DNA of 20,000 bases from Mesotaenium endlicherianum (taxonomy: Eukaryota): assembly GCA_009602735.1 (NCBI GenBank), contig WELA01001462.1:358297-378296 (forward strand), read 5' to 3'. Below the pieces are notes generated by a model. That model ran no database searches and was not told where the DNA came from. It saw only the letters and a program-made list of their open reading frames with translations. Below are positions 1 to 20,000 of this stretch, piece after piece. How positions within the stretch are numbered: the stretch's first letter is position 1; every line of letters begins with the position of its first letter. A program made the translations under genes and the position numbers.

Positions 1-1056
1 TCTACTCAGCGAGTAGATGCCAATGCTGCTGCTGCATTTGCTAGACTACCACCCCAGAGTGTAGACTGGGGAGCATTGTTCGTTCAAATGCAGTCGCAAA
101 TGGCGACCATGTCTCAGTCCCAACAGGAGGACAAAAGAATCATAATGTCCCCACTGCGGGACAGAGACCAACTGGGGTCTCAAACCATTAGTGGTGGTGG
201 CAGAGGGCCTAGTAAGCCCAAGCCAAAACCTCCCCAGGACTATGATCCTGAGGGAAACAGAAAATATTACCTGATCAAGTTTCTCGCGGATGTTGAGCAG
301 TGGCTGGAGAACTACCCAGAACTGCAAGATTACGAGAAGGTCAGGCACACCGGTGCGCTACTCAAAGACGATGCCGCAGACTGGTGGCTATATTGGAAAG
401 GAGAGCGTAAGGCTCAGCAACTTGGTGACCCTACGTGGGTAGAGTTTGTCGAGAAGTTGCATGAGAAGTTTGATGTCATCAACCAGCAGGAGAAAGTTAT
501 ATATGCGATGATCTCCCTGACACTGAAGCAGACCACTTCAGTTGTTGAGTTTGCTCAAAAGTTCCAGGAGAACATGATGAAGCAGCCAGACTTGCCAGAA
601 CGGTATAGGATAGCATACTTCAGGTATGGCTTGAAATCCGAGGTCTCTGGTCATTTTGCTGAGAAGAAGTATGAGAAACTGGCTGACTTGATCCAGGATG
701 CTGACGCCTGGGATCAGCAGCAGTTCAATCACAAGCGCCAGAGTAACGCTTTGGTGTCTAAGATTGTCAAAAAGCCCCACGGTTCCTACAATGCAGTTGA
801 AGGAGACCAGGCTGAGGATAATCAGGGTGATGAATATGAGTATGAGTACAATGCTATTCAGTCTAGAGGTAGAGGTGGTCCCTCTCGAGGTGGCTATGGA
901 AGGGGTGGTGGTAGGACTAAGCCAAGACCAGCCTCAGCAAAATCGATTTGTTTCCATTGCCAGCAGCCAGGTCACTTCTGAGAGCAGTGTCCAGTCAAGC
1001 ACCTCCCAAAGGTCGAGAGAAAAGACCAGCCTTTAAAAGACAGCAACAGTCAGTAA
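1..1056 (+). pseudogene. gag: gag (capsid plus CCHC zinc knuckle), one premature stop
   Basis: Frame is open from base 1. Retrotransposon capsid-like motifs LLKDDAADWW, PTWVEFVEKLHEKF, LKQTTSVVEFAQKF, YFRYGLKSEV; RGG-rich linker. CX2CX4HX4C reads CFHCQQPGHF*EQC with TGA at 979-981; next stop TAA at 1054-1056. Confidence 0.92.
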
Positions 1057-4000
1057 TCCAATCTACTGACTATGAGGATGCTAGAGATAGTGAGTCGTCA
1101 CTAGCTGCCCTCGTAGCAGGTAATATGGGTCCTGCTGAACTGGAGTCACTATGCATGCCTCACAACCAGATAAAGGAGACCATCAGCAATATAGACATCC
1201 AGAGAGTGCACACTCTGGATGCTCTTGTTCCACCTGATGTCCAACATTTCTTTGCTAAGTCAGGAGAACAATGCGAAAGTCAGGAAAAGACAGTCCCCCC
1301 CCCCCCTATCCTACTGCATTTGTTGACGGAGGGGCGTCACTTACTTTTATCCATAAGGACTTAGTTAAGCGGCTAAGGCTGCCTACTGTCACCCAAGGGA
1401 ATAGAAAAATATTCCTTAAAGATGCCTCAAGTATCCCGAGAGGAGTTATAACCAAGCCTATTGAGGTCCAGTTAGGTTCTGGCAATGCAGTTCTAACAGA
1501 ATCGCTTACATTTGAGGTACTCAACACTGGCTTTTATGATCTCGTGCTAGGCAGGTCCTGGCATAATAGACATCAAGCTGAAGTGTGTTGGAGCAGAGGT
1601 ACAGTTAAAGTGAGAGGAGCCAGTGATGGGCAGACTGACTTGGCACCCACCAATGCTCTTCCTCTTGTCCTGTGTGGATGGCAACTGAAGGAAAAGAAGA
1701 GGCTTCCAAAAGACAGAATGTTGTTTCTGCTGCTAAGAGTGATACCTCCTCAACCTGAAGTAGTGGTGGAGAAAAAGGTAAGCCCTCCGAAGCACCCTAT
1801 TGCTGCAAACATTGTTGCTCAGTACACGGATGTATTTAATATGCCTCCAGGATTACCCCCTAAGAGAAAATTAGATCATAGGATTGATGTATTACCTGGG
1901 AGTCAACCACCCTGGCAACGCACCTATGGCTTGTCTTATCTGGAGAGCGAGGAGTTGAAAACACAGATTGCAGAGCTTGAGGAAAATGGTAATATTTCTC
2001 CCAGTAAATCACCTTACGGCGCACCCATCCTATTTGTTAAGAAAAAGGACGGCAGTATGCGGACGTGTGTGGATTACAGAGCCCTGAACAGAATTACAGT
2101 AAAAAACAAGTATGCTTTACCCAGAATCGAGGACTTGCTTGATACCCTGTCTGGTGCTAAGGTGTTCAGTAAGATTGATCTCAAGAGTGGTTATCATCAA
2201 ATCAGAATTGCTGAGGAGGATGAACACAAGACTGCCTTCCGCACACGTTATGGACACTATGAGTTCAACGTGATGCCATTTGGACTGACTAATGCTCCTG
2301 CGACCTTCATGGGTGCTATGAATGACATCTTCAGACCTTACTTGGATAAGTTTGTGCAAGTTTTCCTGGATGATATTTTAATTTTCTCTAAAGATGAAGC
2401 TCAGCACACTGAACACTCAAAGAGAATCATGGACACTCTGAGAAAAAATCACTTATATGCTAAAATGAGCAAGTGTGATTTCTTTAACGAAAGTATTGAA
2501 TTCTTAGGCCACGTTGTCAGTAAAGAAGGCATCAGTGTGGATCCTAAGAAAGTCCAGACCATAAGGGACCGGCCAGTACCACAATTTGTCTCTGAAGTTA
2601 GATCCTTCCTCGGGTTGGCTAACTACTATAGGAGATTTATTGAGAATTATTCTACAAAGGCAAGTAAACTGACTGACCTTACTAAGAAAGACATAGGGTA
2701 TGTGTGGGGGGAAGAGCAGCAGGCTGCCTTCCAGAGCCTTAAAGATGCTTTTTGTTCTGCCCCGATGCTAGCCGTGTATGACCCCAGCAAACCGGTGCAG
2801 GTGGTCACTGATGCCTCTGACTTTGCCATGGGTGCTATTTTTTTGCAGCCTGCTGACAAAACCACAAAGGATGGTAAGGTACGGCAGGAGTGGCATCCTG
2901 TGTTGTATGGGTCTATGAAATATAATCCAGCGGAGATTAATTACTCAGTGCATGATAAAGAGCTGCTAGCTATCATTCATGTGCTCAAACAGTGGAGAGC
3001 ATACTTACATGGTAAAGCTTTTAAGGTGATTACAGATCATCTAGCTCTGACTCAGTTTCAGAAGAAGTCCAAGCTGTCGAGGAGGGAGAACCGCTGGAGC
3101 CAGATGCTGGAGCAGTTTCAAGTCCAGATCGACTACAAACCAGGGAAGTTAAATCCTGCTGATGCACTTTCTAGAAAGCCTGACTTGCAAGAAAGGAACT
3201 TTAGTCAGCATGGTGTAGATAAAGTCCTTTGTGCACTCACTTCACTGAAGGTGAAAAAGTCCTTCCTTGAACAACTTAGAAAAGCCTACCTTTCTGACCC
3301 AACATTTGAGCCCAGCCCCACTACTGGTATGTGTCGTGCTACTGCACTCGGGTATGAGCTTAAGTGAGGGGTCTGGGTGACTAAAACCACTTCAGGCAGG
3401 CTGAAGCTAGTCATTCCTAATAACGTGGAAATAAAATCCCTTTTATTGAGTCAAGCACATGTTACTCTCTAATATAATCTCAGACAGGGACTCAAAATTT
3501 GCCTCTTAGATCTGGAGGGCTTTAATGGGGTTAATGGGAGTCAAATAGCTGCTCAGCACAGCAAACCACCCTCAGACTGATGGGCAGACTGAAAGAACTA
3601 ACCGACTTCTGCAAAAGGTACTGAGAGCTTATATTAACCATAAACAAGATAATTGGGATGACCTGCTACCCCAAATCCAATTTGCGGTCAACAATGCGGT
3701 CCTCGCGTCAACGGGCAAGACTCCTTTTCAACTAAGCCTGGGTAGAGTCCTCAAGTCTCCTTTAGATGTCCTAGGAGAGTCTTTACCTCACCCTACAGGG
3801 ATTGACAATCTGGTCTCCCTCCACCTAACTAAGGAGTTTGCTGACACCCTGTCAGAAGTCCAGCAGAACCTGCACAGAGCCCAAGAATACCAACAAAAGT
3901 ACGCTAATCAGCACCGTCGAGAACTGACCTTTTCTAAGGGCGATTTGGTCAAACTGCATTCTCAGCACCTGTACCTCCCTGGTGTGGTCAAGAAAAAGCT

Positions 4001-4394
4001 TGGCCCTGTCTGGATCGGTCCATATTCGGTGGTGCGTCGTGTCGGAAAGAATGCTTACAAACTGAACATGTCAGCCAAATACAAGGGTCATCCGGTCTTT
4101 AATGTCTCCTTCCTGGAACCATACATCAAAAGTGATACACTGTTCACAGGTCGGTTACCTGTCCAACCGAGACCGGTCCCAGCTGTCCGGGACGGCGACC
4201 CTGAGGAATATGAGGTTGAGGACATTTTAGACGCGCGTTCGGTCCGTCGATCGTCTAAATATGTCATGAAGTACCTCATTTGATGGAAGGGTTACGATGC
4301 CTCTGGGGACACTTGGGAATTTAAAGACCATTTGACTAATGCCAAAGGAGCGTTGAAACGGTTCCACCTTCGGGCGGCTGGAGCACCTCTCTAA
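1032..4394 (+). pseudogene. pol: pol polyprotein (protease, RT, RNase H, integrase, chromodomain), disrupted
   Basis: [10 protein letters not shown]...[130 protein letters not shown]. Several in-frame stops, a frame change at the C12 run (1295-1306) and an internal deletion near 3467. Confidence 0.95.
4203..4370 (+). other. Integrase C-terminal chromodomain
   Basis: EEYEVEDILDAR...KYLI*WKGYDASGDTWEFKDHLTNA; aromatic cage residues Y/W/Y present; TGA at 4281-4283 interrupts it. Confidence 0.93.
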
Positions 4395-4788: not shown

Positions 4789-6459
4789 ATGGCTCCCACC
4801 ACACAAAAAGAGGACAGAAAGCGCAAGGCAGAAGAAGCCAGGAGGACAATGGAGTAATACCAGAAGGAGCTGGCGGCGACGTCCCTCACCAGGATAGAAC
4901 AAGGAAGGGTCTGCAAACAACAAGAGGCGGCAGAAGAATCACAGAGGAAGAAGGATCAGGAAGCGGAAAACCTCAGGATAGCTGAGGAGGAGAGACAAAA
5001 GAAACAACAAGAAGAAGCGGCAGCGGCAGAGGAGGAGAAAAGGAAAAAGGCTGAAGCGGACAGGCAGATGAGCTTGGCCACTTACAGGTATACTGTGGTG
5101 GGTGGCCAAAACTTTGATAACCTGAAGGAAGCATTGCTGGCAGCCCAGGAGATCAACAAGCTGGAACAGACAACTCTACAGAGGGAAGGAATTGCAGCAC
5201 TGGATAGGTACATTGAGACACACACTGGTGTGGTCCTCTACGAGGATTATGCCAAGATGGTGGGCTATACAGCAGAGCAGGCCCGGTACCTTGCCGATGA
5301 TTCAGAGAACAAGCCAGTCCCAATACCGGGAATAGTGGGAGATTAGAGACTCATCATGGTGAGCATGCGGCCCGATAGCTTTAAGGATACGGTATTCTAC
5401 CTCACACTATTGCCAGCTTACAATGAAGTTGAGAGACGGAGCTGGGAATACTTGGCCAGGGAAGCAGGACAGCAGATGTTCTCTCCCCACTGGTTCCCAT
5501 GTAAACTGAGAAAGGTTGAGCATGGACCTCAGTACTACCAGCAGCCAACAGACTGGAGGTGGATGACCGTCACAAACAAAAAGCAGGAGTGTGACTGAGC
5601 CCAACCAGACAATGTCCACTATGGCCTAGACGGCTACCTCATCCTACCACCTCACATTGCCCCTTGGGACCCCAGGCTGAATGGCTGCCTGAGTAATATG
5701 AATGCAAAGACCAAAGAGCACAGGAGGAGGAGGAGAGACTACTTCTCTAACGGAAAGCATGCCTTCGTCAAATGGGCGAAGAATGCAGGCCAGATAGATA
5801 TCAGCAGGCTGAAGGCCAAGCAACCTCCAGCGCGCCCTAAGAAAGGGTTATCAGTAGACTACTCCATGTCTACCAGGGAGCAGGACGACTTGGTTGACGA
5901 GACACCTAATTTCTCAGAGGAGGAGGATGAGGAGGATGAGGAAGAAGAACAAGGCAGAGGAGAAGCATCAGGAGCTGGTACTCAGGAGACCCAGGGGCAG
6001 GCAGGGGCACTTCCTAAGGAACCAAGATCAGGTATATGGAACGTGATCCCGGTCATGGAGGCAACTGGACCCCGCACTCGCTCCCCCAGCCCACTTGCCC
6101 AAGCAAGGGAAGAAGCTGATCTGACTGTACTTGGCAGCAGACACCGGTAGAAATCCCCAGAGGACAGGGGTGCCAGAAGAGGAACACGCGGGGTGGCCAG
6201 AGGTATGCCGGCCTCACCCTTCGCTCAGGGACATGTACCTCTTGCCAATGTATTTCAGCATCCTACTGGAATGTCTGTCTATGTGGGGATCAACACCCAA
6301 GTGGGTGAAGAGCAGGCTACCATCCTTCGTTCACCTCGAGGTCCAACTTTAGAACAAACGGGGTTCTTTAGAAGGCCAGCTGCCAGACCTAGAGGGCTGT
6401 CCAGATCTAGGTCCATATCTCAGTCTCCTGATCCTGAAGACCCAGGAACAACCCCTTAG
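4789..6459 (+). pseudogene. Additional ORF (~556 codons) between pol and 3' LTR, unknown function
   Basis: ATG 4789 and listed ORFs 5068, 5356, 5698 and 6193 are all in one frame, broken only by stops at 4855, 5344, 5596 and 6148. E/K/Q/R coiled-coil-like N-terminus, aromatic-rich middle, RRRRR basic patch, acidic tract, SR-rich tail. Confidence 0.8.
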
Positions 6460-6571: not shown

Positions 6572-7147
6572 TGTAGTGAATCAGTATGTTAGTAGATATA
6601 ATATTCATTTATATATAATAATTAATAATCAGTCTGCTGGACTTCATACTTAATATCAGTTTAATGACTCCATCGGAAGCAGCAGGCTGAAGTCAACTTA
6701 AGTCAGCTTGCTGACACATTCTTTGACAGCCAACTGACTTCCGTACTCGGTAGCAGCGAACTGCCTCGATATGCATCTAAGTGTGATATGCTAGATGAAT
6801 GGCCAGATGACATCCCTATGATGGATGGCGATTCGGGATGATGGGAGATGGCGGTGGATTTGGTGAACCGAGGTCCCTACCAACGTGGTTAACTCCCGGG
6901 TAGGCGGTGCCATCGCACTGGCCGTTGAACAGTAAACTCATTCCATGTACATATGCTAGGCATTGCTCTCGAGTTCGGCATTCGGAAACGAGGCCAACTC
7001 TCTTGTACAGCTTACCGAGAGATCTGAATCCAAGGCGAGAAGCCGTTGATACGCACTGTCTTCTAAACCTTGCTTATGTATAAGTTTACTGATTGCATTA
7101 TTGATGCTAGTTTACTCGCATTTGACTTACGAGTATCGTTCACTGCT
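6572..7147 (+). repeat. 3' LTR of the chromovirus (LTR1)
   Basis: Starts TGTAGTGAATCA after the PPT. Imperfect inverted end TTCACTGCT at 7139-7147, after which unrelated DNMT coding sequence begins. Shares its start and a core motif with the LTR at 7682. Confidence 0.7.
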
Positions 7148-7150
7148 AGT

Positions 7151-7681
7151 GTGTTTCCTTTGCCGTTTAACAAGTTAACAGAAAATACCATAAAAGATTG
7201 CTTGCTGGTATAAAGATCTTCATTAATTGTTAATCGCCTATTTGGTAAGTCGGTTCATTTTATTTTTGCTGGATTCTCTTACCGGCCATTCTCCCAAGCC
7301 GGAAGGAGAAAAATGATTCAATGATCATCAAACGCAACACTGGGGAAAAATGGTGAAAATCATCCAGTCGCTGCAAGAGCGCCAGCGTTAGTTTCCACCT
7401 GCGTTTGTGATTGAGAATGTACACTTGGAATTGGACTACAAGGAGATGAAGCCAGGGGCTTCATTGCTGATTTTTTACTCCACCTTAGGGCATCATGCCT
7501 TGCTGAACGACGCGAGGCATGGGGGATTATCTCAACGAGCCAGGATGCTTAGACAAAATTGTATATCCATTGAGCATTTGAAGGCTATAGATTCGATCTT
7601 GCGACGACCGCCCAACGCACAATCTGTGGGAGAAGTACTGGGGGTAATTACTAAATCAGTGGCAAGGAGGGATACCTACCT
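7151..7681 (+). pseudogene. DNMT3-like C5 cytosine methyltransferase, copy 2, N-part (motifs IV, VI, VIII)
   Basis: SVHFIFAGFSYRPFSQAG (degenerate GxPCQxFSxAG, 7250-7303), frameshift in A-run ~7310, then WGKMVKIIQSLQ...PPAFVIENV (motif VI ENV) and LLNDARHGGLSQRARMLRQN (motif VIII RxR). Colinear with the DNMT at 16225-17158. Confidence 0.85.
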
Positions 7682-8944
7682 TGTAATGAATCAATTCATT
7701 ATGTATTCAATTAATTGCATATATAAATATAACACTAAATAAGTATTATATCTATATACTCACAAGTGCGAGTTCATCTAAATGAATGTATGTCGATGTA
7801 ATGCGAGTTTACTTACTTACTTTGTCAAAAAGGTCAGCAGGATGACTTTTGTTCCATAGTGTAGTTTGCTGACTTTGTTGAAAAGGTCAGCAGGATGACT
7901 TCTGTATCATAGTGTAGTTTGCTGAGATTTATATATCAGTTATATATAGGATATAATATCAGTAGGTTGACGTATAGTAAGCTCGCTTGATATTAGTCAA
8001 TATACTTAGCTTCAGTACGCTGAGGATAGACATGTTCATTTAGATTGTTATTTGTAGATTGGCACATGTGACCGAAGTATACTGAAAGTCGGGAGGTCGA
8101 CTGAGATTTGGTAAACCGATGTCCTACCATTGTGGTTAACTCCTGGGTAGGCGGAGCCGTCGTCAGTCAACTGAACAGTTAGGACTTCAGTCAACCACCA
8201 ATTAATATGGTCGTTATACCTAGATCCGTGGGTCCCAACTTAACGGGTTTCCCACGAAACGGCGCACCTTGCGCCGTGGTCAACCAGGTGGTCACTAGGT
8301 ACATAGCAGGCTGGGATCTCGTGGTCCCTCATTCTGGACAGTAGGCTTTACAGTCGGATTTCTACTTGCAAATCATGTGTGCACTTTTGGGTTTGTTCTA
8401 ATGACCAGCCTTCACGGAAATTAACATGGTTGCTTTGTCTGCGCTCCAAATGGGACGAACTAGGACTTTTCGGAAAGGTCTTGTCAAGATGCATCCGTTG
8501 CCGTTAAGTTTGCTCAATTTGAAGTAGTATTGGCAGAGTTATGCCCTCTGACATTTCGGGGTCACACAGCGGACAGATTCCATGGTTTTGCACCTAAGTC
8601 AGTGGGATGTGTTTTAGCTACATTATGGTCATCTGAATGAGAGCCCCTTTGCTATTCAGTCCCCTGATGTTGTGCATGTGCTATACATGCTTGCATGCCT
8701 GGTAGGCAAGAGGCCATGAGTTTCTAAAGGAGAAGCTCTACTCCTCAAGCTCGCCTCTTTCTTGTGCCTTGTATTCGCGTGCAACTATGGCACACTACGA
8801 TGAGTGAATCAAGGGTTATAGATGAGTAAACGGAATTCGTTATGAGGGTGAAGATCGCTCCCTGATTTCACATGCTTCCACCTATCTCTGATCTTTTATA
8901 TTTAAATGAAATATATTAATCTTGAATAAGCAAGATTCATTTCG
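7682..8944 (+). mobile_element. Solo LTR (~1263 bp) related to LTR1, with 5-bp TSD
   Basis: Starts TGTAATGAATC and ends GATTCATTTCG (imperfect inverse of the start). Flanked by TACCT (7677-7681) and TACCC (8945-8949). Excision rejoins the DNMT frame. Confidence 0.88.
7821..7926. repeat. Tandem duplication, 2 x 53 bp, inside the solo LTR
   Basis: TTTGT..AAAAGGTCAGCAGGATGACTT...CATAGTGTAGTTTGCTGA at 7821-7873 and 7874-7926. Confidence 0.9.
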
Positions 8945-9247
8945 TACCCTCAGTATAGCATCAACAAGCCAGGGAAACCGAGAGAGGTTCTGCCTACCTT
9001 CACGGCCTACCTTGAGTCACGAGCTTTCTCTAAGGGAGGACCCGAGATGATTAAAGATTCCACCATCGGCTCGTTCTGGCGAGAACCATTTGCTATGAAG
9101 AAGGGAAGCTGTTTGAAGCTCCCAGATCAGGTGGTTCGGAACATCATCAACAAGGTTGGGAGGCCAGAGGCATCAAAGATCTTTGGCAACATGATTGGGC
9201 AACATACTATGACCTGGTTGCTGGAGACTATTATGACATGGCAATAA
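8945..9247 (+). pseudogene. DNMT3-like methyltransferase, copy 2, C-part (target recognition region, motifs IX-X)
   Basis: YPQYSINKPGKPREVLPTFTAYLESRAFSKGGPEMIKDSTIGSFWREP...KIFGNMI aligns with HPSFCQVNIPGHPRAAFSTLVSCPRSYTFCQFKPGMIFDSHTH*YVEP...LLGRVMD of copy 1. Confidence 0.82.
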
Positions 9248-11188
9248 TTGACTTTTGCCAACAAGCCTATGCCAAAGCCACCAACGGTATCAATTGGAAT
9301 ATATGCGGTGCCTACCTCAGATCAGAGATCTAACCAAAATGTGCAACAACGCCGGGAGGCAACTCCAATACGCAGAAATGCTGCTGGAGAACCCAGAGGC
9401 AACCATACCTCTCGCAAGGAAGCCGGGATGGTTGAATTGGCATGATGCCATGAGCTGCAAGACCGCATAGACAATAGAATGGCTAAGCTAACCACACCTT
9501 TGGCAAGAGAAGACACGCCCATGGCAGACAAAGATCCAAACGACGAGACTCCGCCACCAGCCGAAAAAGCAGCTGACAGGTCTATATCACCCACGCCATC
9601 TGGGCCATGGGTGGACGACACGCATGTCACATCGCCTTGGCTAAGAGAGGCGGCGTCCAGGCAAATAGAGGTGCCATCACCCGAAAGGGAGGAGACACCT
9701 GAACGGCAACAGACGCCAAGACTGGAGGTGACTTCTTTGCGTGAGGAAAAAGAAAATTCTAGTTCTGACACCAACGTCAGACCACGAGCAACCGAAAATG
9801 GACACTATTGGGAGGCAAGTTCAAGCAGTTGGGAAGCTAATCAGCGCTGTCTATCATCCTCACCAGATCGGAAATGGTCAAATGAGACTTCAAGCTAGGG
9901 AACCCTAGAGGACGATGATCCAAGAGAGGAAGATGATCGGACCCACCTTGCTGAGCGACAGTGCAATGTTGGTGAATGGGCTGAGGCAAGCAACCAGAAT
10001 TCTGTAGACTCTGGAGGGTCTGGAAAAACCATATGCTTGAAAGTGATTATTGAAAGTCACAAGGAGCTGAGCAAGAAATTGAGTAAAATGCTCTACGCAT
10101 CTGAGTCAACCAAGGAGGAGCATCCTATGGCTACAGTTTGTCTAACAGCTGGGAAAATCACCAGGCAAATTATGAATTAACTTTTGGAGGCTGATGCTGA
10201 TCGGCGCAAGGAAGGGAAGGTAGCGCAAGTAGCGCACTTCTTTGCAAAATGCAATTATCAACATGGCCAAGCTCAACACAGAAGACGACAAAGAACCGTT
10301 GCCACCTGGAGTGGAGGAGCCAGTTGAAGTCGAGGCAGGAACGCCTAATGCACCAGACTTCAACTTGCCTGAGCTCGCAGATGGAGGGGACGTAGGGGAC
10401 CAGATCCCACAATTTTCTACTTCAGAGCTGGACGTACAGGACCTGCAAGAGCTCAGAATTGATGATTGGGTATGCGACCAGTTAACACTGGAGGGGCCCA
10501 ACCCAACGGACCTATATGATGACTTGAGGTCGCCCACTGCCAGCATCACAGCACTGGAACATTCCACTCAGCGAGGGCGGCAATAGCCACCAGAGGTGAG
10601 TGCCTGTGTCGCTTAGGCGGAAGCAGTTGAAGGAAAGCCACAAGGTCGCGCAAGCAGGCCAAGGAAAGTGGCTCGCAAGGGAAACGCACCACTCAAACAA
10701 ATGTTGATGCGTTATTTCAAATACCAAGGGAAACCTTGCAGGGAAGGAGTTCCGCGAGAAATCACGACTGCCCCACCAAAACTAATTATGGAGATCCTGC
10801 AGAAAGAGAGCAATGCACGTCTAATGCGCAGAGCTGCTGCATTAGGTCTGAACATTTCCATGGTAACGCTTCCACCACTGTAATGCGGGGAAGAGCAGAG
10901 TCTGTCTCTAGGGTGCCCACAGCTACTGAGCAAGAACTCACTGACCTGAGAAGAACGGTGCAATGCTTGGTTGAGGAGAATACCGTGCGTAACAGGTTGG
11001 CAGATTTGCAGGATCGTTGGTTTGTGTCACGTGGCTGGACAGTCACACCACCACCAAGAGAAAATCTAGGAGTGACATTGGAATGCATAGTTTCACTGGA
11101 ACGTCAGTGGGGTGGGACTATCGACCCGAGGACCGCTGCCCATGACCCAGGTGAATTGGCCAGTGGCCAACGCACGTCCACCATTTGA
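9248..11188 (+). pseudogene. Decayed coding sequence of unknown function downstream of DNMT copy 2
   Basis: Chain of plus-strand ORF pieces (9255, 9479, 10242, 10668, 10736) rich in P/E/D/T/S with some helical-looking segments. No RT, RH or INT motif recognised. Confidence 0.45.
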
Positions 11189-11215
11189 AGCAGGCGGGAC
11201 GAGTACCAGCTAGAC

Positions 11216-11466
11216 TGTCGCAACGGAGACTGTCGGCAGATGCTAGGCATCGATATTGCATAGGTGGGAGAGAGAGCTCAAACATACAAGACGGACCGGT
11301 ACTACTAACCTAGGGACTGCGGGTAAAAACCCCCCCTAACGAGGGAAAAAACCCACAGCTTATTAGCTGCAAATGCGAAAAGAATAGTAAAGGTCTGAAC
11401 TAAGCACACCTGGGCAATCGAACATCTACTGGGCACCTACTGACTGAGCAAAAATAGCTATGAAAA
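11216..11466 (-). repeat. 251-bp LTR copy A
   Basis: Direct repeat of 12343-12593; about 24 substitutions by manual count (~90% identity), about 20 of them transitions, no indels. Confidence 0.9.
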
Positions 11467-11469
11467 CCA

Positions 11470-12340
11470 TGTAACGAGCCCAAGCAGATTAGTTGTGAGT
11501 TGTGAGGTGAAGGTGTTACAACACGGACGAGGACGAGGTGATTAACTTATGTGATGGCCGAGTTCGAGAGCACAATGCACGCACTTAATAAGCTTAAGGT
11601 GTGGGTGTGGTACGTGCTACCTTCTAACAGAGAGAAGGGTAAACAAGAGCACTCAATCCGCAAGCATTTCATTAAGACATGCACCAAGAAGTAGAATCAA
11701 CTTAAACATGAAAATGGACTTACAAAAGCTAACACCGAGATTGTGTGAGCGTGGAACCTAAGTAGTGTACCCTCACGAATCTATGCCCAATGCGAACCTA
11801 CCAAAATCAAGCGGAAAGGAATCCTACGACTTAACGCGTCATCGCGTTAAATCGACTAAATAACACCAAAACATATATGAACCGACCTGTGCTCAAGAGT
11901 ACGACGAGCGTGCGGACGAACAACGACCAACCCCCCACACCCCTCCAGTACTCTCCCTAACCCCTAGCAATCGCGTGGGCATATCCGGCGGGTTTGCCTA
12001 TAGTACGTGACGGCCCAGTCACCCATGCCTAGGGATCCTACTTGGTACCAGTGCTAACCCAACAAGCGGGCAAACTTGTGGGTCAACCTTCACACGTGTG
12101 GGCGGCACACCACGCGTGAAGGGAAAGGGAGTGCGCGGGATCCGGGCAGAGCCTCATAGCTGCTCAATAGCAGAACCTCGTGAGCGGATCAAAGGTCCAA
12201 GTATTCACCCTAGTTGTGAGTGGGCTAAGCCGTCCTCTCCTACCACCCTAACCCGACTAACCACTAGATCTTGCCATCACCCTCCACCCTCAAATTCTAC
12301 CCCTAGACACCAAAAGGATGCGACAGGCACGGGCATGACA
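11470..12340. mobile_element. LTR-like unit (~871 bp) between LTR copies A and B
   Basis: TG...CA termini with imperfect inverted ends TGTAACGAGCCC / GGGCATGACA; non-coding; no matching TSD found. Confidence 0.5.
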
Positions 12341-12342
12341 GC

Positions 12343-12593
12343 TGCCGCAACAAAGATTATTGGCAGACGCTAGGCATTGATACTGCATAGGTGGGAGAGA
12401 GAGCTCGAACATGCGAGACGGATTGGTACTACTAACCTAGGGAATGTGGGTAAAAACCCCCCCTAACGAGGGGAAAAGCCCACAGCGTATTAGCTGCAAA
12501 TGCGAAAAGAATAGTAAAGGTCTGAACTAAGCACACCTGGGCAATTGAAAATCTACTGGGCACCTATTGCCTAAGCAAAAATAGCTATGAAAA
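12343..12593 (-). repeat. 251-bp LTR copy B, the 3' LTR of the DNMT-PHD element
   Basis: On the minus strand it follows the end of pol and a PPT, and ends ...GTTGCGGCA. Confidence 0.85.
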
Positions 12594-12604
12594 TCCCACC
12601 CCCA
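12594..12604 (-). promoter_or_regulatory. Polypurine tract of the DNMT-PHD element
   Basis: Minus-strand GGGGGTGGGA directly abutting LTR B. Confidence 0.75.
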
Positions 12605-13039
12605 GCTGAAGGCGAGGGGATGCGGCAGAAGCTGAATAGTAAAAATTGGGAGACAGGAGAGGATTGTCAGGAGCGATGGACGATAGGACGACCTCAGGCG
12701 AACCGGGATTAGAAAACCCGGGCGGAAGATACTCCAATGATAGACGTGACGAACGGTAATGGGATAAAACTCCGTAGTAGAGCGGAGGGTTGGGGACATG
12801 AGCGAGACGCGGCCATCCACAAATGGGTATGCGGTGGGCGCACGTGAAGACTCAAGGAAATCCGGAGAGCGTCAGCAACGTCGGGGGTGAGCAGCGGCGG
12901 AGGGAGCCCACAAACGCCGGAGGACAGGGACTGCTCCCACCAGGCCAGGAGGGAAAACCTGCACGTGTGACGAAAGGAGGAACGATCAAACGAAGGAACT
13001 GAAACAAGGAAAGGAAAAGAGTAGTGAGGGAGTCCTAGG

Positions 13040-13190
13040 CTACCGGGGTGGGCGGCACGAGGGGCAAAACCAACCACCATTGGGATTCTAGGCAGAGGAG
13101 GAGACAAACAGGCTAAATGCGAACCAGCATTGCAACGATCGCACAGCAGCATCGAAGCGGGGCGACGAATTGACCCACACCCGTTGCAGG
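13040..13190 (-). pseudogene. PHD finger at the integrase C-terminus
   Basis: CNGCGSIRRPASMLLCDRCNAGSHLACLSPPLPRIP, then after a 1-nt frameshift (~13082) NGGWFCPSCR; gives the C4HC3 pattern; stop at 13040-13042. Confidence 0.92.
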
Positions 13191-13199
13191 GTTGGTTAG

Positions 13200-14335
13200 C
13201 CGAGACAGTGGCTTGCAATGGGTCAACCTCATGAAGGATATTAGGCAAGTGACAAGGTGCGCAATTCTTCATATTCTTGCAAATGGTGCGATCATCAGAA
13301 CCCTCAAGTGTAAGGACCCCATTAGGACTAACGGTGCGTGCTCGTAAGATGACTGGGCCGGCACGAACGTTAAGAGTATGGCGCATTTTACGTTGCAAAT
13401 AGACATAACCCCGACCTCAAACTTGACCGTACGAGGCTTGTATACCCCACTCCGTAAATGCGCGTAGCGAAACGTGTCCCGGTGCTGAGCAGTGAGCAAA
13501 TTACCCATAGCAATCGACATGTGCTTAAGGAACGAGGTAGCGCGTTCATTGAGGTGGGCGAGCAAGACATTGGGATCGTCAAGCTGAATAGGCAGAGTAA
13601 TACGACGACAAATGGCGGAAGGAAGGGGAGGTTCACGACCATACAGGAGGAAATACGGAGAATATGCGCGCAAGGACGCCTGGAAACTGAAGTTATAGCC
13701 CATGGCCAGCCACGGGATGTGCATGTCCCAGTCAGACACATCGCAAGTGAGGGCATACTTGCGCAGACTGCGCTCGACGGTTTTGCACTATGCGTTCCGC
13801 AAGCCCATCGACCTGGGGGTGGTCATGTGAGGTTATATGATGATCAATGGAAGATGTATCAAGCAATTTGGCCAGATCACCCTAGAACTCTGACTCTTGA
13901 TCAGTGAGGACCTCAGCACATGCTCCATACCGACACAAGATACGATCAGTAAATGTGCGAGCGATGTAAGCACTGGACTTGTCAGGGATACTGACCAGTT
14001 CGATCCATTTAGTAAGATGCTCAATCATGCCAAGAACGTAGCGCATGCCACACTTAAAGAGAGATAAGGGTCCAGCCAGATCCAACGACCATTAGTAAAA
14101 GAGCCCTCGCAGAGGGAGGGAGTTGAGGATAGAATGAAGTGCATTGAAAGTGTTCTTGACGCGGTCACAAGAAGTGCAGGAACGGACAAAATCGTTGACT
14201 AGGGTGACTAAGCCATCCCACCAAAACTCGGTTTGCAGGAGGGAGCTAGTACGCTTAACCCCAAAGTGCCCTGACTCCTCATGGATCTTACGAATGAGGG
14301 AGATGCGTTGAAGGGGAGGAGGAACAACTCAAGTA
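13200..14335 (-). pseudogene. Integrase (HHCC plus DDE core)
   Basis: IHEESGHFG...CTSC, WSLDLAGP, EVLTDQESEF, HPQVDGLAER, WDMHIPWLAMGY, SPYFLLYGREP; stops and frameshifts. Confidence 0.93.
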
Positions 14336-14475
14336 TGGTGAGGAAAGATGCGCAGTAAAGCCCCTTCATGCCAGTGATAGTGCGCACAGCGATGCAGGAT
14401 GCGGTCCCGCTCACGTGGAGAGATGGGTGAAGACCAGGCTCGGGTGCGTAAATACTCTAATACGCCAAGATCAGA

Positions 14476-15132
14476 TCAAACATCAGAAGCCTCACGCAGT
14501 GATGCAGCTGGACTCACGGCGCATGCACCCACAGGAGTAGGGAGAAGACCCAAATAATACGCGGCATGCCAGGCTGGTAGGATGTGTTCTTGCTGACTAG
14601 ACGCAAAGCGAGCCCCAATGGTGTTAACATCAGAAGGATCAGGGTTTCCACTAAGCCCATCCGCATCTTGGTTACTTAACCCGACTTTATGCTCAATAGT
14701 CGAGTCGTATTCCTGAAGTATGAGAGCCCAACGTGCGTGTTTACCCGTAAGTTTCTGGTTGGCCATTAACCACTTTAAAGGTTGGTGAGCAGTGATTAGA
14801 GTGAAGTGGGTACTGTAGAGGTAAGGACAAACATGTATGACAGCCCATACTGCAGCTGAACACTCCCCTTCATACGAACTGTAATTCCGTTCGGCACTGT
14901 TGTTATTATGGCTAGCATAAGCAACAACGTATTCATGCCCCTCTTCATCCTCCTGAGCAAGCACGGCTCCCAATCCCAGATGACTCCAATCGGTGTAAAG
15001 GGAGAAAGGCTTATTGTAGTTGGGTCTGCGGAGGATAGGAGCAGAGGAGAGAAGACCCTTCAGTTTGTCAAAGTCTGCCTGGCGTTCAGTATTCCATTCC
15101 CAGGGTACATTCTTTTTCAAAAAATTGTTCAA
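14476..15132 (-). pseudogene. RT connection and RNase H
   Basis: LYTDWSHLGLGAVLAQ, VVAYAS, ERNYSSYEGECSAAVWAV, ITAHQPLKWL, ARWALILQEY, NQDADGLS. Confidence 0.93.
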
Positions 15133-16055
15133 CGGACCGCGATTGAGCTAGAATCAGAGCAAAAGCGACGGTAATATCCAGTGATGCCCATGAAGGCCCG
15201 TAACTTAGATACGTCTATAGGAACTGGCAAACGTTGAATAGCATTGACTTTAACTTGTTGTGATGTTAGCCCCCCAGGTACAATGTGATGTCCAAGGTAT
15301 GGAACGGAAAGGGTAGCAACCTTTCATTTTCCCGGGTGACACTTGAGACCCGCGGCTTTCAAACTGTGCAACACATGTTCCACATGTACCAAGTGTTCCT
15401 CTACAGTACGGCTAAAAATGAGCACATCATCGATGTAACAACGAGCAAGAGGTAACCCACTCAGCATACGGTCCATGATACGCTGGAATCGGGCAGGGGC
15501 GTTCTTTAAGCCAAACGGCATAACCTTCCACTGGTACAGACGACAATTTCCCCAAAATGCAGTCTTATGTTTATCCTTGGGATCAATAAGGATTTGGTTA
15601 AACCCCTGACGTAGATCAAATACACTGAAGACAGTAGCGTCCTCAAGGACATTAAACATATTCTCAGGTACAGGCATGGGGTAGCGATCAAGCTTAGTAA
15701 CAGCATTGAGTCCCCGATAATCCCCACACATGCGCTTCTCAGTGTAATTCCCCAATGCGTCCTTCTTAGCAGGCATAACTGTGGGTGCCGCGAAATCAGA
15801 CATTGACTCCTCTATCATGCCAGCCTCTAAAAGCTCAGTAACCTTTTCACGCACAATGTCCTGTTCTACTCTAGCGTGTCAATAGTCCCGTAGAAACACC
15901 GATTCGGAGGTGGTGAGGTCAATGGTGAACTGTGACATGTTACAAATCCCTAAGTCCTTAACTAATCGTGCAAAGTATGATTCATTACGATCAAGCATCT
16001 GAGTGAATTGCACAACTTCCTTTTCAGTTAATTGTGTGCCCAGGTCCCACCCATC
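15133..16055 (-). pseudogene. Reverse transcriptase
   Basis: KRMCGDYRGLN, YPMP, FSVFDLRQGFNQI, KTAFW, MPFGLKNAPARFQ, CYIDDVLIFS. Confidence 0.96.
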
Positions 16056-16224
16056 CTTAGGTTTCTGTGCGGACGAAATCGATGAGGGGTCTGCGTGCTA
16101 TGCTGGAATTAAAAATTCTGACGGAGCCCCCCCTCCTGCAGCCAAAAACAGGTAGGCTGGAATATGTCGGAAAAGATCAGGGAGGCGGGCGTTGAGGATG
16201 GGTAAGACAGAGAAAGACCTTGTG

Positions 16225-17158
16225 AGCACATGAACATCCATGACACGGCCTAGCAATTGGCACCGCTGGGAGGGGGATAAGGACGGAGACGCAGTAGCAT
16301 GGGGAATAAATCCGAGAATGAGCTCGCGTTCGGACGCGGAAGGCTCGACATATTAGTGTGTGTGGGAATCAAATATCATACCAGGCTTAAATTGGCAAAA
16401 TGTGTAAGATCTAGGACAGCTGACAAGGGTAGAAAAGGCGGCGCGTGGGTGACCAGGGATGTTGACTTGACAGAAAGAGGGGTGATCGAGGCGAAGGACC
16501 TCCATTGGGCAACGGTGGGGAGCTAAGTCTGAAGAAACAGTGAGACGGGGAAGATGTGCATGCATGTGGTGGACCAGAGGTGTGAGGGTGATGGGTGAGA
16601 CAAAGTTTTGCCAGAACACTCGAGATCGATGAGCGTAGGATCCCACGGCGGCGGCATCAATAGGGACCCAGGCCCCAGGATGGATGTGATGGTGAGGAAG
16701 TCAGCACGAACGTGGGCCCGGGGATCGTCTGCGGAGTTAACATCTTCAAAGAGGTACGTTGGAGGAGAGAGCTGAGAGGTTTGGAGAAGCCCTAAGACAC
16801 GCACAAGCTCAAAAAATAACTGAGAGCGAGGGTCCGAGAGCCCCTTCCCAGTACCCGCCCGAGAATGACCCTGACACTCCCATCCACCTACGACCAGGTG
16901 AACGGGCCCAATGGCGTGCAAATGTTCCAGATGGATCAGGCGAACGTCAAAAGGCAAGGCTGAATAAGCCGTAGAGTATGCAGATGGGGGAAATAAGGTT
17001 GGGAAAGCTAGGGTGAGGAGAGCAAGGTGGTGTTGGCTTGCAAGTCGGGCAAGCGGGTCAGCGTCACAATAATAGTAGTGCGCAATACGCTGCCCACTGA
17101 GCAACAAACCCGCGACGGTAGAAGAGACCCCCGCAAATAAATCGAGCACCGTGATGCC
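16225..17158 (-). pseudogene. DNMT3-like C5 cytosine methyltransferase domain within Pol (copy 1)
   Basis: Motif I VLDLFAG; IV VVGGWECQGHSRAG; GLSDPRSQLFFE; VI YLFEDV; VIII IDAAAVGSYAHRSRVFWQN; IX-X ERELILGF...RCQLLGRVMD. One frameshift (~16668) and one stop (16353). Confidence 0.95.
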
Positions 17159-17524
17159 CTAGGGGGGTGGCAGCCAGGGCACAGGAGTGGTGGCAATGAC
17201 GATGGGAGAAGAAGGGTGTGCGGATGGGGAAGCGAGAGAGGGGCTGGGAATAGGTGCGAGACAGTGTAAGGTTGCGTGGATCTGCTGGATGGTAGCAGAG
17301 GGCGTGGTGTATGTGAGAGGGGGCGAGAGGATGGGTTGAGCAGAGCAGGCTGAGAGAGGTTCAGGAGTGGACTCAATGTCGTGCTGGAGGAGATAGGTAG
17401 GGTCGGAGAGATTGCCAGGACTGAGATCATCAATGGTGAGTGCAAACGCAGCCGCGACTGGACACGCGGGAGATAAGGGGGAGTGGGTGAGAATGAGGGG
17501 AAGACAACCCACATGGTGCCCCAA

Positions 17525-17835
17525 AGCCTCAAAGTCAACGCGATATGTGGCAATGCCTTGCCACAAGTCAATGGTGAGACCGACGAGGAAATTAAACTCC
17601 TGGCCGAGTAGGACATCATAGAATGTAGACTTGGTGACCATACATTGAGCATAGAGGGTGACAGCGGCGGGGGTATGGGCATTGAGTGTGGTAGGTATAC
17701 GACAACGTGATTGGTGTGGAAACAGGATTAGGACAGGGCTCAAGATCGTCAGCGGTGATGCGGAGGTGCTGACACATGACTGCTCCAAGAAGGATTGGCT
17801 GGGCCCCAATATCGAGAATGACTATACGGGGTGCG
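17525..17835 (-). pseudogene. Retropepsin-like aspartic protease
   Basis: VILDIGAQPILLG (degenerate DTGA) and, after a frameshift, FYDVLLGQEF. Confidence 0.8.
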
Positions 17836-19158
17836 AGATTGTCCATGCGAAAATACGCATGCTGGTTATCCACCATCATATTGCGGGGCAAAGCGCGCTG
17901 CCGCTCAAGAGGGGTAAGGAAGGACGGGTGGCGGAGCTGACCTGGAAGGAGACAAAACCTGTGAAGGGGCGAGAAAAAAGGAGAGAGCAGGGGGGAACGA
18001 CCCACCTGGAGGACGCGGTACGGAAGATGGCGAAGGAGAGGGCGTTGCGAGGTGAGCTAGCAGCGGAGAGTCTGGAGGATGGCTGGTAGAGGTCGAGGCA
18101 GGCACAGACGCGGCGAGGTAGGCCGGGGACTTGACGGCTTAGGGGCGATTGGCAGATGAAGCAGCGGGCGCCCACAGAGGAGAAACGTAGGTAGCTGGGA
18201 CGGGACGGTCGGTTGGGACGCGCGGCGGCGGAGGGTGCGGACAGCGACGGGGGAGCTTGAGCGTAATCGCCTCTTGAGCCTGTCCAAGAGCCGTAGAGGA
18301 CACAGTAAACAGAGATGGTGGAAGCAAGGCACCCCCCCGCAACTGGGATGGTGGCGGCGGAATGAACGGAGTTGGTTGAGGAATAAAATGCGACGGTGCT
18401 AGAGGAGGTACCGTGCCCACTGGAGTAGGAGGTAATTAATCAAGAGCATTTGAATCGCATGCGTCTACCAACGCTGGCAAAGAGGCAATGGACGTGTTCT
18501 CGACCTGACAATTGTAAGTAACTTTGCCAATACAAAAAGTGACAGTGCACGGCAGGGACGTGGAGTCGGACGGCAACGGACGACGGGACGGGGACGAAGG
18601 AGGAATCGGAACTCCCTGAATGTCGAAGCTGACAGAAAGGACTGACTGGCCAGCGGACAAACTGGTTGGAGCAGGAGTTGTCGGCTCAAGAGGCTCCACG
18701 GCTGCTCGCGCAAACAGGGCAGCTAGCGCAAATGGGAGAGGATTGCTGGTAGGAGGCGGGGTAGGCGGACGTGGCGGGCTGGACGGCTGCGGCAAATCGG
18801 CTACCACTTGCGCATATGAGGGAGGGAGCAGTAGATCTCTCTCCACTGCTGCGGCTGCGGCGCGCAGGTGGTCACACACCTGCTAGACTTGCAACTGCGC
18901 TGCGGGCACATCCTCCGGGAGGATGACCATAGTACCTGCAGCCCCCCCCTTAGCTCTGACATCCCACACCGGTACAGGCAAACGCGAGTGAGACGATCCT
19001 AACGTATCATCGGGCTCAAACAAGTCAAAGGACCGCGGCAGCTGAGCAGACTGCTTTGTATGCCGGCCATGGTCAGGATCGACGGGAGGTGGAGCGGATG
19101 GCTCATGCGCCGCTGTGACGTTTCTGCTTTTTCGAGAGGATCTTTCCTCGGTATTCAA
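17836..19158 (-). pseudogene. Pro/Ser-rich N-terminal part of the polyprotein (gag position)
   Basis: ORFs 18883-19158, 18436-18879 and 18139-18420 are in one frame separated by single stops. A CFIC...CAC cysteine cluster lies near 18100-18165. No capsid motif recognised. Confidence 0.5.
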
Positions 19159-19281
19159 GGAATATTTAATTCAAGTGGAAGAAAAATTCGTATACTTGTG
19201 GAAATTGACGAATACTTGAAAGAGCGAAAGTGAAAACTAACGTAGAATGTGTGCTTGTGAGAGTTGCACTCACAATGACTC

Positions 19282-19301
19282 TGCAGGTATTTATACCTGC
19301 A
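19282..19301 (-). promoter_or_regulatory. Candidate TATA box inside a palindrome
   Basis: TGCAGGTAT-TT-ATACCTGCA; minus strand reads TATAAATA at 19295-19288. Confidence 0.4.
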
Positions 19302-19558
19302 CAACATGAGGCACTGGAGTGCTTCGAGTCACCACCTAGGGCACTGGTTCATGTTCAACGAAAACGGTCGAAGGGACGTGTCCCATTCGGCCGAATGCAC
19401 AAAACGCGCAGTTGGCCGTTTGGAGACTTTTCGACGGTTTCCGAAAAACCGTTTCGCGCCAAACGGGCGTTTTCGCGTTCTCGCGACTTTCCGAAAAAGT
19501 CGCGATTGATCGCGGAGTCGCGTACAGATGCTTTCGTCATGAACCGGTAGTTTAAGAA

Positions 19559-19629
19559 GCTACTTTGGCCAATCGGTTAGGTGTGAACGTTTCAAACGAA
19601 AGTCGCGGGTTCGAATCCGCTCGGATGCA
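19559..19629 (+). other. tRNA-derived sequence (pseudo-tRNA or SINE-like head) with Pol III A and B boxes
   Basis: A box TGGCCAATCGG (19566-19576), B box GGTTCGAATCC (19608-19618), T-arm GCGG...CCGC. Acceptor and anticodon stems do not pair well. Confidence 0.6.
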
Positions 19630-20000
19630 AAGCGAATTTGCATATTTTGTTTCGTTTGACTTTACGACTGTTTGTTCGTATTAATGATACAACAGTTTCT
19701 TTGTATTACGACTAGTCGTAATCCGAAATCTGTGATTGTCCATTATTCGTAATAATGACAATCAAAATAACTTAATCAAACAATGATTAATGAAATTTTC
19801 ATCTCATAATTATTCAAAGTAAGTTTTTGAATAATTATGTCGTACTTTTGCGAAGTAGTCGAATTACGTTACGACGCTTTTTGCAATAGTATCTCGGTCG
19901 TTTCGCCAATCGACCGGGAATTAATCGGCACACGTGTGTGGCGAATAATTCAATGTGATGCAATCATTTATGAAATAACTTATGATAAATAGTATAACGT

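What the first reader, a model, noticed from the sequence alone, without database searches (positions are those of the whole stretch)
16225..17158. DNMT3-like DNA methyltransferase embedded in the Pol of a Ty3/Gypsy retrotransposon
Seen: a C5-MTase domain with motifs I, IV, VI, VIII, IX and X in order. It is in the same frame as the protease C-terminus (single stop at 17159), and its C-part is in the same frame as RT (stops only). Motifs VIII-X (AHRSRVFWQN; ERELILGF...RCQLLGR) resemble DNMT3 (AHRARYFWGN; EMERVFGF...RQRLLGRSW). Known: DNMT-carrying retrotransposons are rare; from memory, de Mendoza et al. 2018 described them in Symbiodinium and the charophyte Klebsormidium. Inference: the enzyme was packaged with Pol and could methylate the new cDNA or the insertion site. 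It may be a new family or host for this system.
Basis: partly seen in the sequence, partly recalled or inferred. Interest (0 to 1): 0.9.

Follow-up and report, generated by a model that had tools for sequence, protein, structure and literature searches.

The report
Dead retrotransposon carrying DNMT3-type methyltransferase
This is a broken copy of a jumping gene whose family encodes its own DNMT3-type DNA-methylating enzyme between protease and reverse transcriptase, likely to methylate its newly made DNA copy; the kind is known from one alga, and relatives also occur in other algae and in liverworts.

Summary
Observation confirmed. The minus strand holds a decayed Ty3/Gypsy element: gag remnant, protease, C5-methyltransferase (17158-16212), RT, RNase H, integrase, PHD finger. 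Pfam DNA_methylase passes its cut-off; a profile of relatives matches DNMT3A (1e-26) far better than DRM2 or bacterial enzymes. This copy is dead (about ten stops, six frame changes, one inside the DNMT). It is no one-off insertion: another copy in the same sample carries RT and both DNMT halves in order, 20 of 27 listed variant sites fall on third codon positions, and DNMT and RT distances co-vary across relatives. It is a new member of the Gypsy-DNMT3 kind described in Klebsormidium (de Mendoza 2018). Named relatives: Closterium, Marchantia (with DNMT); Coleochaete, Calypogeia, Klebsormidium (RT). The scan already noted this kind nine times in another genome, which those notes call a moss. 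Added here: relatives place the DNMT at two positions in Pol, and a sister clade that includes Marchantia genes ends Gag-protease-DNMT at an in-frame stop; 4 of 4 readable junctions read UAG-CAR-YYA, the TMV readthrough signal. The window's own stop there fits poorly and is more likely decay. Activity is untested; host unknown.

The parts
17900..18400 (-). Likely gag remnant with a decayed Cys knuckle (CFICQSP near 18150); most of gag and any 5' repeat not found
   Evidence: Sequence reading; no Pfam hit; depth at single-copy level. Weak.
17498..17909 (-). Aspartic protease, motif D-I-G at 17813-17805, frame change near 17710
   Evidence: tblastn with relatives incl. Marchantia proteins
16664..17158 (-). 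DNMT3-type methyltransferase, N-half (motifs I-VI; catalytic Cys at 16876-16874, Glu of motif VI at 16747-16745); preceded by a stop at 17161-17159
   Evidence: PF00145 E 8.1e-7; 189 bits to profile of relatives
16212..16676 (-). DNMT3-type methyltransferase, C-half (motif VIII, target-recognition region, IX, X); in RT frame; stop at 16355-16353
   Evidence: 143 bits to profile of relatives; tblastn
16098..16100 (-). In-frame TAG in the DNMT-RT linker, followed by CAC GCA (4 of 6 positions of CAR-YYA); decay stop or remnant of a leaky stop, open
   Evidence: compare relatives
15138..16055 (-). Reverse transcriptase (stops at 15881, 15326)
   Evidence: RVT_1 E 4.5e-26; tblastn
14700..15135 (-). 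RNase H
   Evidence: RT_RNaseH E 2.4e-34
13410..14400 (-). Integrase (zinc-binding part and core), with stops and frame changes
   Evidence: tblastn to intact relatives, 42-52% identity
13057..13190 (-). PHD finger at the integrase C-terminus
   Evidence: PF00628 E 1.6e-6
12342..12593 (.). 252-bp direct repeat, copy nearer the element (90% to 11215-11466); membership in the element uncertain
11215..11466 (.). 252-bp direct repeat, far copy; membership in the element uncertain

Best explanation
This is a dead copy of a multi-copy Ty3/Gypsy family whose polyprotein carries a DNMT3-type cytosine methyltransferase between protease and RT, which in active copies likely travels in the particle and likely methylates the new cDNA, probably at CG, before a PHD-tipped integrase inserts it. 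Shown: the anatomy, the DNMT3 affinity, the decay of this copy, the presence of the domain in other copies, and long co-inheritance of DNMT and RT. Inferred: release by the element's protease and packaging (from position in the polyprotein), catalytic activity of intact members (from kept catalytic residues), cDNA as substrate and CG as context (by analogy with SymbioDIRS-Dnmt3), histone-tail reading by the PHD (established for PHD fingers, recalled; untested here).
For: Domain order and frames. Profile of 22 sequences: DNMT3A E 1.3e-26, DRM-type 1e-13 to 5e-10, HhaI 2e-8. Model of an intact relative's domain (L001), pLDDT 90, matches DNMT3A/B/C in all 30 listed rows, top TM 0.69/0.82. One contig at depth 294, against 63-76 for pieces identical to the window, carries RT, DNMT C-half and DNMT N-half in order with like spacing, in runs X1 and X2 of one sample. 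20 of the 27 listed variant sites in the DNMT are third positions, p 2e-5 (only the best-supported 40 of 1575 rows were shown). Nearest relative P0178 is the window's sister in both trees (RT SH-aLRT 97; DNMT 93/86) and has DNMT-RT-RNase H-integrase in one frame. DNMT and RT identities co-vary: rho 0.72 for 19 protease-DNMT-RT elements, 0 of 2000 permutations. Among 133 relatives the catalytic Cys is kept in 131, the motif VI Glu in 133, the two motif VIII Arg in 130 and 128. SymbioDIRS-Dnmt3 methylates CG de novo in yeast (PMC5890265).
Against: No activity has been shown for any Gypsy DNMT3; the Klebsormidium one gave none in yeast (inconclusive per authors). No footprint of extra self-methylation: CG observed/expected under synonymous shuffles is 0.70-0.86 in this element against 0.33 in the ordinary Ty3 of the same window (one comparison only). 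The moss host DNMT3 makes CHH, not CG (PMC10952607 passage), so the context is open. The window's N-half alone does not separate DNMT3 from HaeIII and a stop-free stretch of the C-half has no PDB hit; the DNMT3 call rests on relatives. No host DNMT3 or named KnitGypsy-Dnmt3 sequence was in my trees. 0 of 205 RNA reads laid at 99% or more.
Confidence: 0.6

Rival explanations
1. The DNMT acts mainly on host DNA at or after integration (marking the flanks or the new insertion), carried there with the PHD-integrase, not on free cDNA.
For: PHD finger on the integrase; in a second large clade the DNMT sits directly before the integrase (22 proteins RT-RNase H-DNMT-integrase-PHD); a moss non-chromovirus clade, Phygy, prefers NCGN target sites (PMC6317226), though its identity with this clade is untested.
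Against: In this architecture RT and RNase H lie between DNMT and integrase, so protease cleavage would separate them; no data on insertion sites.
Confidence: 0.2
2. In this family the TAG at 16100-16098 is a programmed leaky stop, so Gag-protease-DNMT is the main product and the DNMT is made at Gag level, RT-integrase only by readthrough. Compatible with the best explanation; it changes the dose.
For: 4 of 4 loci of relatives with a readable DNMT-RT junction have an in-frame TAG followed by CAR-YYA (L001, L002, L003, L085); that hexamer is at 3 and 4 of 1045 in-frame places in two of them. 21 of 24 rows of a DNMT clade (SH-aLRT 98) were labelled as ending after the DNMT, including Marchantia proteins. 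The window's stop is in the same linker and is also TAG.
Against: The window lies outside that clade (99/97 for the clade); its sister P0178 is open through the linker; the context CAC GCA matches 4 of 6 positions, and a clear decay stop at 15881 has the similar CAC GCT; the copy has about ten stops. The four loci belong to one subclade and are not independent.
Confidence: 0.2
3. The domain is kept as a DNA- or RNA-binding module, or methylates RNA, and is not a DNA methyltransferase in effect.
For: No activity for the Klebsormidium enzyme in yeast; motif IV Pro is replaced by Glu in 51 of 134 sequences; no extra CG loss.
Against: Cys, Glu and Arg-x-Arg catalytic residues are near-invariant over very diverged relatives; DNMT2 scores far lower than DNMT3 (2e-5 against 1e-26).
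Confidence: 0.12
4. A host DNMT3 gene piece fell into this one copy, or the join is an assembly artefact.
For: None found beyond lower summed depth over the DNMT than over RT, which faster divergence explains.
Against: Independent contig bridging RT and DNMT; same order in intact relatives; no introns or DUF3444; matching trees.
Confidence: 0.02

Closest known systems
KnitGypsy-Dnmt3 of Klebsormidium nitens (de Mendoza et al. 2018, PMC5890265)
   Same: Intronless, unrearranged DNMT3-type domain in the coding region of a Gypsy element; kept catalytic residues; signs of purifying selection; Klebsormidium RT proteins fall in the same broad RT clade.
   Different: Another host (Klebsormidium RTs are 50-53% identical); dead copy; I could not see the paper's domain order (figure not held, main supplement too large), so whether it is the protease-DNMT-RT or RNase H-DNMT-integrase type is open; its DIRS-like repeat layout was not confirmed here.
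SymbioDIRS-Dnmt3 (same paper)
   Same: DNMT3 in a retroelement Pol; two alternative domain orders also occur there; shown to methylate CG de novo in yeast.
   Different: DIRS class with tyrosine recombinase, dinoflagellate host; here protease, DDE integrase and PHD.
Host DNMT3 of seed-free plants (Yaari et al. 2019, PMC6453930, passages)
   Same: DNMT3-type catalytic domain in linear motif order.
   Different: Host genes have a C-terminal DUF3444 and stand alone; here RT follows the domain.
EpiLTRs (bioRxiv 10.64898/2026.05.21.726589, passages)
   Same: LTR elements with a cytosine methyltransferase and a chromatin-reading domain.
   Different: Their DNMT is sister to DNMT4 and comes with an adenine methyltransferase and chromodomain; none seen here.
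Stop-codon readthrough in TMV, SIRE1, MuLV, Tca2 (PMC2754532, PMC2194720, passages)
   Same: UAG-CAR-YYA in four relatives matches the TMV signal; in-frame stops between retroelement ORFs are known.
   Different: Here the stop lies between DNMT and RT, after protease; readthrough untested, and doubtful for the window's own family.

Membership tests
Ty3/Gypsy LTR retrotransposon | Order protease-RT-RNase H-integrase; Ty3-type RT | tested here: met
   best PDB hit of nearest relative is Ty3 Gag-Pol, E 1.8e-84
Ty3/Gypsy LTR retrotransposon | Paired LTRs, primer site, target-site duplication | tested here: inconclusive
   No repeat pair flanks the coding region in the window; only a 252-bp repeat downstream; 5' end seems lost
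DNMT3 family | Closer to DNMT3 than to DRM, DNMT1, DNMT2 or bacterial enzymes | tested here: met
   Profile E 1e-26 vs 1e-13 or weaker; fold of a relative. Rests on relatives; no tree with host DNMT3
DNMT3 family | Catalytic Cys, motif VI Glu-Asn, motif VIII Arg-x-Arg | tested here: inconclusive
   Cys, Glu and both Arg kept in the window; Asn is Asp in this copy; met in relatives
Gypsy-DNMT3 (KnitGypsy-Dnmt3 kind) | Intronless DNMT3 inside the Gypsy coding region | tested here: met
Gypsy-DNMT3 (KnitGypsy-Dnmt3 kind) | DNMT in the same reading frame as RT and RNase H | tested here: met
   C-half is in the RT frame; nearest intact relative continuous. A sister clade has an in-frame stop there
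Gypsy-DNMT3 (KnitGypsy-Dnmt3 kind) | DNMT under purifying selection across copies | tested here: met
   20 of 27 listed variant sites at third positions; a proxy from a truncated table, no Ka/Ks
Gypsy-DNMT3 (KnitGypsy-Dnmt3 kind) | DIRS-like arrangement of repeats | tested here: inconclusive
   One downstream repeat pair, no upstream partner found
Gypsy-DNMT3 (KnitGypsy-Dnmt3 kind) | Same domain order and same DNMT clade as the K. nitens copies | not testable with these tools
   Figure not held, supplement too large; K. nitens proteins found hold RT but no DNMT
DRM | Rearranged motif order | tested here: not met
   Motifs I to X in linear order
Host plant DNMT3 gene | C-terminal DUF3444, stand-alone gene | tested here: not met
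   RT follows the domain; no such Pfam hit
Phygy clade (Neumann 2019) | RT clade membership, tRNA-Trp primer site, NCGN target duplication | tested here: inconclusive
   No Phygy sequences at hand; no Trp-type primer site upstream of gag in L001, L003, L085 or this element; length similar
EpiLTR | Adenine methyltransferase plus DNMT4-sister DNMT plus chromodomain | tested here: not met
   No Dam or chromo hit; DNMT3-type

The most novel reading that the evidence does not exclude
Gypsy-DNMT3-PHD elements are one old lineage spread from charophyte algae into liverworts and mosses, hidden in annotations as hypothetical host genes (at least 15 Marchantia gene models in one cluster). The DNMT has moved between two positions in Pol, and a land-plant clade makes it at Gag level through a TMV-type leaky UAG placed before RT, so each particle would carry many methyltransferases and deliver a pre-methylated copy; the clade may be the CG-inserting Phygy group. 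Marchantia makes this directly testable.
Probability: 0.4. Interest if true: 0.72.

Novelty: new member of a known kind. Interest (0 to 1): 0.45.

Why it matters
Why a transposon keeps the enzyme that silences transposons is an open question; the published Gypsy case is one alga and an inconclusive assay. Relatives with open reading frames in Marchantia polymorpha, a genetic model, would make the question testable, and they inflate DNMT counts in bryophyte annotations. The conserved readthrough signal in a sister clade suggests the dose of the enzyme is selected. The window copy itself is only a fossil, and the scan has met this kind before.

Tried and rejected
No whole genome is held, so no count of intact copies or Ka/Ks. 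Whether family copies share the TAG at 16100 stays open; the one read lay obtained lists no rows there and has little depth in that bin. No RNA holder listed; in two RNA runs of the same species label 25 and 180 reads laid, none at 99% or more, both directions alike, so expression of this copy is not shown and the reads may come from relatives or DNA. Viral contigs: only distant phage-type methyltransferases (24-42% identity), no RT relatives, so no viral donor seen. Prokaryote genomes: nothing with P0178; with an alignment, 78 loci of which one (L085) had a DNMT hit, taken as eukaryotic contamination of a MAG. No tRNA or Rfam hits. No LTR pair or Trp primer site. Self-methylation footprint not seen. 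Atlas: nearest cluster for the DNMT is streptophyte (0.96) but phage clusters score the same, so it does not discriminate; nothing for ORF 4858-5346. Literature searches for Gypsy-DNMT3 in land plants or for readthrough at this junction found only the 2018 paper and later mentions of it; most subscription papers are outside the library. I did not try to identify the host.

Full report
Observation. Minus-strand translation and Pfam show, from high to low coordinates: a possible gag remnant, a protease (D-I-G at 17813), a C5-methyltransferase (PF00145, E 8.1e-7, above cut-off), RT (E 4.5e-26), RNase H (E 2.4e-34), integrase and a PHD finger (E 1.6e-6). tblastn with intact relatives fixes the order and six frame changes, near 17710, 16665, 15138, 13800, 13408 and 13084; ten in-frame stops were counted along those frames, one of them in an overlap of two frames. 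A profile of 133 relatives built without the window covers profile positions 1-169 at 17155-16664 and 166-319 at 16676-16212, with 189 and 143 bits against 3.1 for the best of 100 shuffles. The copy is dead: a stop before the domain, a frame change and a stop inside it, and motif VI reading E-D where 123 of 133 relatives have E-N.

Which methyltransferase. A profile of 22 sequences (21 relatives and the window's N-half) ranks DNMT3A/B/C at E 1e-26 to 1e-22, DRM-type enzymes at 1e-13 to 5e-10, HhaI and HaeIII near 2e-8, DNMT2 at 2e-5. The model of the intact domain of relative L001 (pLDDT 90.1) matched DNMT3 structures in all 30 rows listed. The window's N-half alone is ambiguous (HaeIII 2.7e-4, DNMT3C 4.6e-4), so the assignment rests on relatives. 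Motif order is linear, not DRM-like. No host DNMT3 sequence was available for a tree.

Family or accident. No genome is held. Contigs from two DNA runs of one sample were laid on 9500-20000. Pieces identical to the window have depth 63-76. One contig of depth 294 (224 in the second run) aligns to RT, the DNMT C-half and the DNMT N-half in order with like spacing; another covers 16260-16886. Summed depth over the DNMT bins is 575-1044 in X1; the tool warns that this is no copy number. Of the 40 variant rows shown (of 1575), 27 lie in the DNMT and 20 of them are third codon positions (p 2e-5), a selected sample but the pattern of purifying selection. RNA: 25 and 180 reads laid from two runs, none at 99% or more, both directions alike; this copy is not shown to be expressed.

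Relatives. The N-half hits 978 clusters at 50% identity, 317 at E 1e-10 (top 150 seen). The RT search gave 271 proteins (top 120 seen); named ones are from Closterium, Calypogeia, Klebsormidium, Marchantia and Coleochaete at 45-60%. Marchantia Mp2g26090 and MARPO_0091s0058 and Closterium proteins carry DNMT and RT together; a Marchantia cluster of 18 Gag-protease-DNMT proteins, 15 listed, sits on several chromosomes. Of 325 stored proteins, 219 had a DNMT hit; they show two Gypsy layouts, protease-DNMT-RT as here and RT-RNase H-DNMT-integrase-PHD, plus DIRS-like ones. The second layout is one clade in both trees (RT SH-aLRT 100, 86 of 139 rows sampled; DNMT 100/99, 42 chosen rows). The window pairs with the unnamed P0178 in both (97; 93/86), at 64% RT and 45% DNMT identity. 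DNMT and RT identities co-vary (rho 0.72, 19 elements of the first layout; 0.58 for all 52; 0 of 2000 permutations each), which fits one old capture, vertical descent and a later move of the domain; the direction of the move is not shown, as deep branches are unresolved. The host is likely a streptophyte alga or seed-free plant (inference from these names); it is none of the named assemblies.

A leaky stop in a sister clade. Loci L001 and L003 are near-complete elements with the window's domain order; in both, Gag-protease-DNMT ends at a TAG and RT-RNase H-integrase-PHD goes on in the same frame (L003 has one frame change in gag). L001, L002, L003 and L085, all four loci with a readable junction, read TAG-CAR-YYA, the hexamer that drives readthrough in TMV (PMC2754532, passages; PMC2194720, passages). 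It occurs at 3 and 4 of 1045 in-frame places in two of these ORFs. The four are related, so they are not independent, yet they differ at both degenerate codons. Proteins that end shortly after the DNMT form a clade with Marchantia members (99/97). If read through, the DNMT would be made at Gag level. The window has TAG CAC GCA in the same linker, but lies outside the clade, its sister is open there, and a decay stop at 15881 has a similar context; I give a programmed stop in this family about 1 in 5. The direct test on family copies could not be made.

Mechanism. Best guess: in active copies the polyprotein is packaged, the protease frees the DNMT, and it methylates the cDNA so that the new copy arrives marked, while the PHD steers integration. 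Near-invariant Cys, Glu and Arg-x-Arg argue for catalysis. CG as context is borrowed from SymbioDIRS-Dnmt3; moss host DNMT3 makes CHH. Against a strong footprint, this element is less CG-depleted (0.70-0.86) than the ordinary Ty3 beside it (0.33); the 2018 paper likewise saw no depletion in its DIRS-DNMT3 elements. Neumann 2019 reports that the moss clade Phygy inserts at NCGN; whether Phygy is this clade is untested (one search found no Trp primer site).

What is known. PMC5890265: read parts 1-5 of 7 of the text and passages of the review file; figures and the main supplement not seen, so the Klebsormidium domain order is unknown to me. Passages only: PMC12344493, bioRxiv 2026.05.21.726589 (names streptophyte Gypsy-DNMT3), PMC10952607, PMC6453930, PMC11982613, PMC2754532, PMC2194720, PMC6911290, PMC7466625; PMC6317226 passages and one supplementary row. 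Ten searches found no paper on these elements in land plants or on the stop. Earlier scan notes report the same kind nine times in another genome, called moss-like there; none matched the readthrough words, and no look-alike DNA was indexed.

Verdict. Real; a new, dead member of a known kind in an unidentified host. The wider range, the two layouts and the readthrough signal in relatives lift it above routine. Interest 0.45.

Noticed in passing
window 7250-7643 and 8945-9235, + strand: A second, separate DNMT3-type relic of the same broad family (profile E 3e-15 and 2e-14): decayed motif IV (AGFSYRPFS), FVIENV, SQRAR, then the IX-X part 1.3 kb further on. GT and AG sites near 7650 and 8953 could mark an intron, or the gap is an insertion. 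No RT beside it; stop and frame change inside. Could be an intron-bearing captured copy.
   Followed up: partly
L001:5083-5091, L002:2081-2089, L003:4661-4669, L085:3489-3497: In-frame TAG-CAR-YYA between DNMT and RT in four related elements (TMV-type readthrough signal).
   Followed up: yes
proteins P0043, P0083, P0086, P0140, P0149 and others: A large clade with the DNMT between RNase H and integrase (RT-RNase H-DNMT-integrase-PHD), hosts unnamed.
   Followed up: partly
proteins P0003, P0074, P0127: Retroelement proteins with both a DNMT3-type domain and a Dam adenine methyltransferase, DIRS-like by my reading.
   Followed up: no
window 1-4300, + strand: Ordinary Ty3 element (Ty3 capsid, protease, RT, RNase H, SH3) without DNMT and strongly CG-depleted.
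   Followed up: partly
window 19100-20000: Very high-copy repeat (summed depth about 1e5 against 70) with a tRNA-like stretch near 19570-19625 by eye; no ARAGORN or Rfam hit.
   Followed up: partly
window 4858-6459 and 9446-11188, + strand: Long reading frames broken by stops, acidic and coiled-coil-like, with no Pfam or Atlas match; likely unknown repeats.
   Followed up: partly
window 6857-6915 and 8105-8162: 59-bp repeat pair (86%), the first copy beginning near a primer-site-like TGG motif, inside the second DNMT relic's region.
   Followed up: no
L085 (9285 bp): A whole plant-type DNMT retrotransposon filed in a cyanobacterial MAG; likely contamination.
   Followed up: partly
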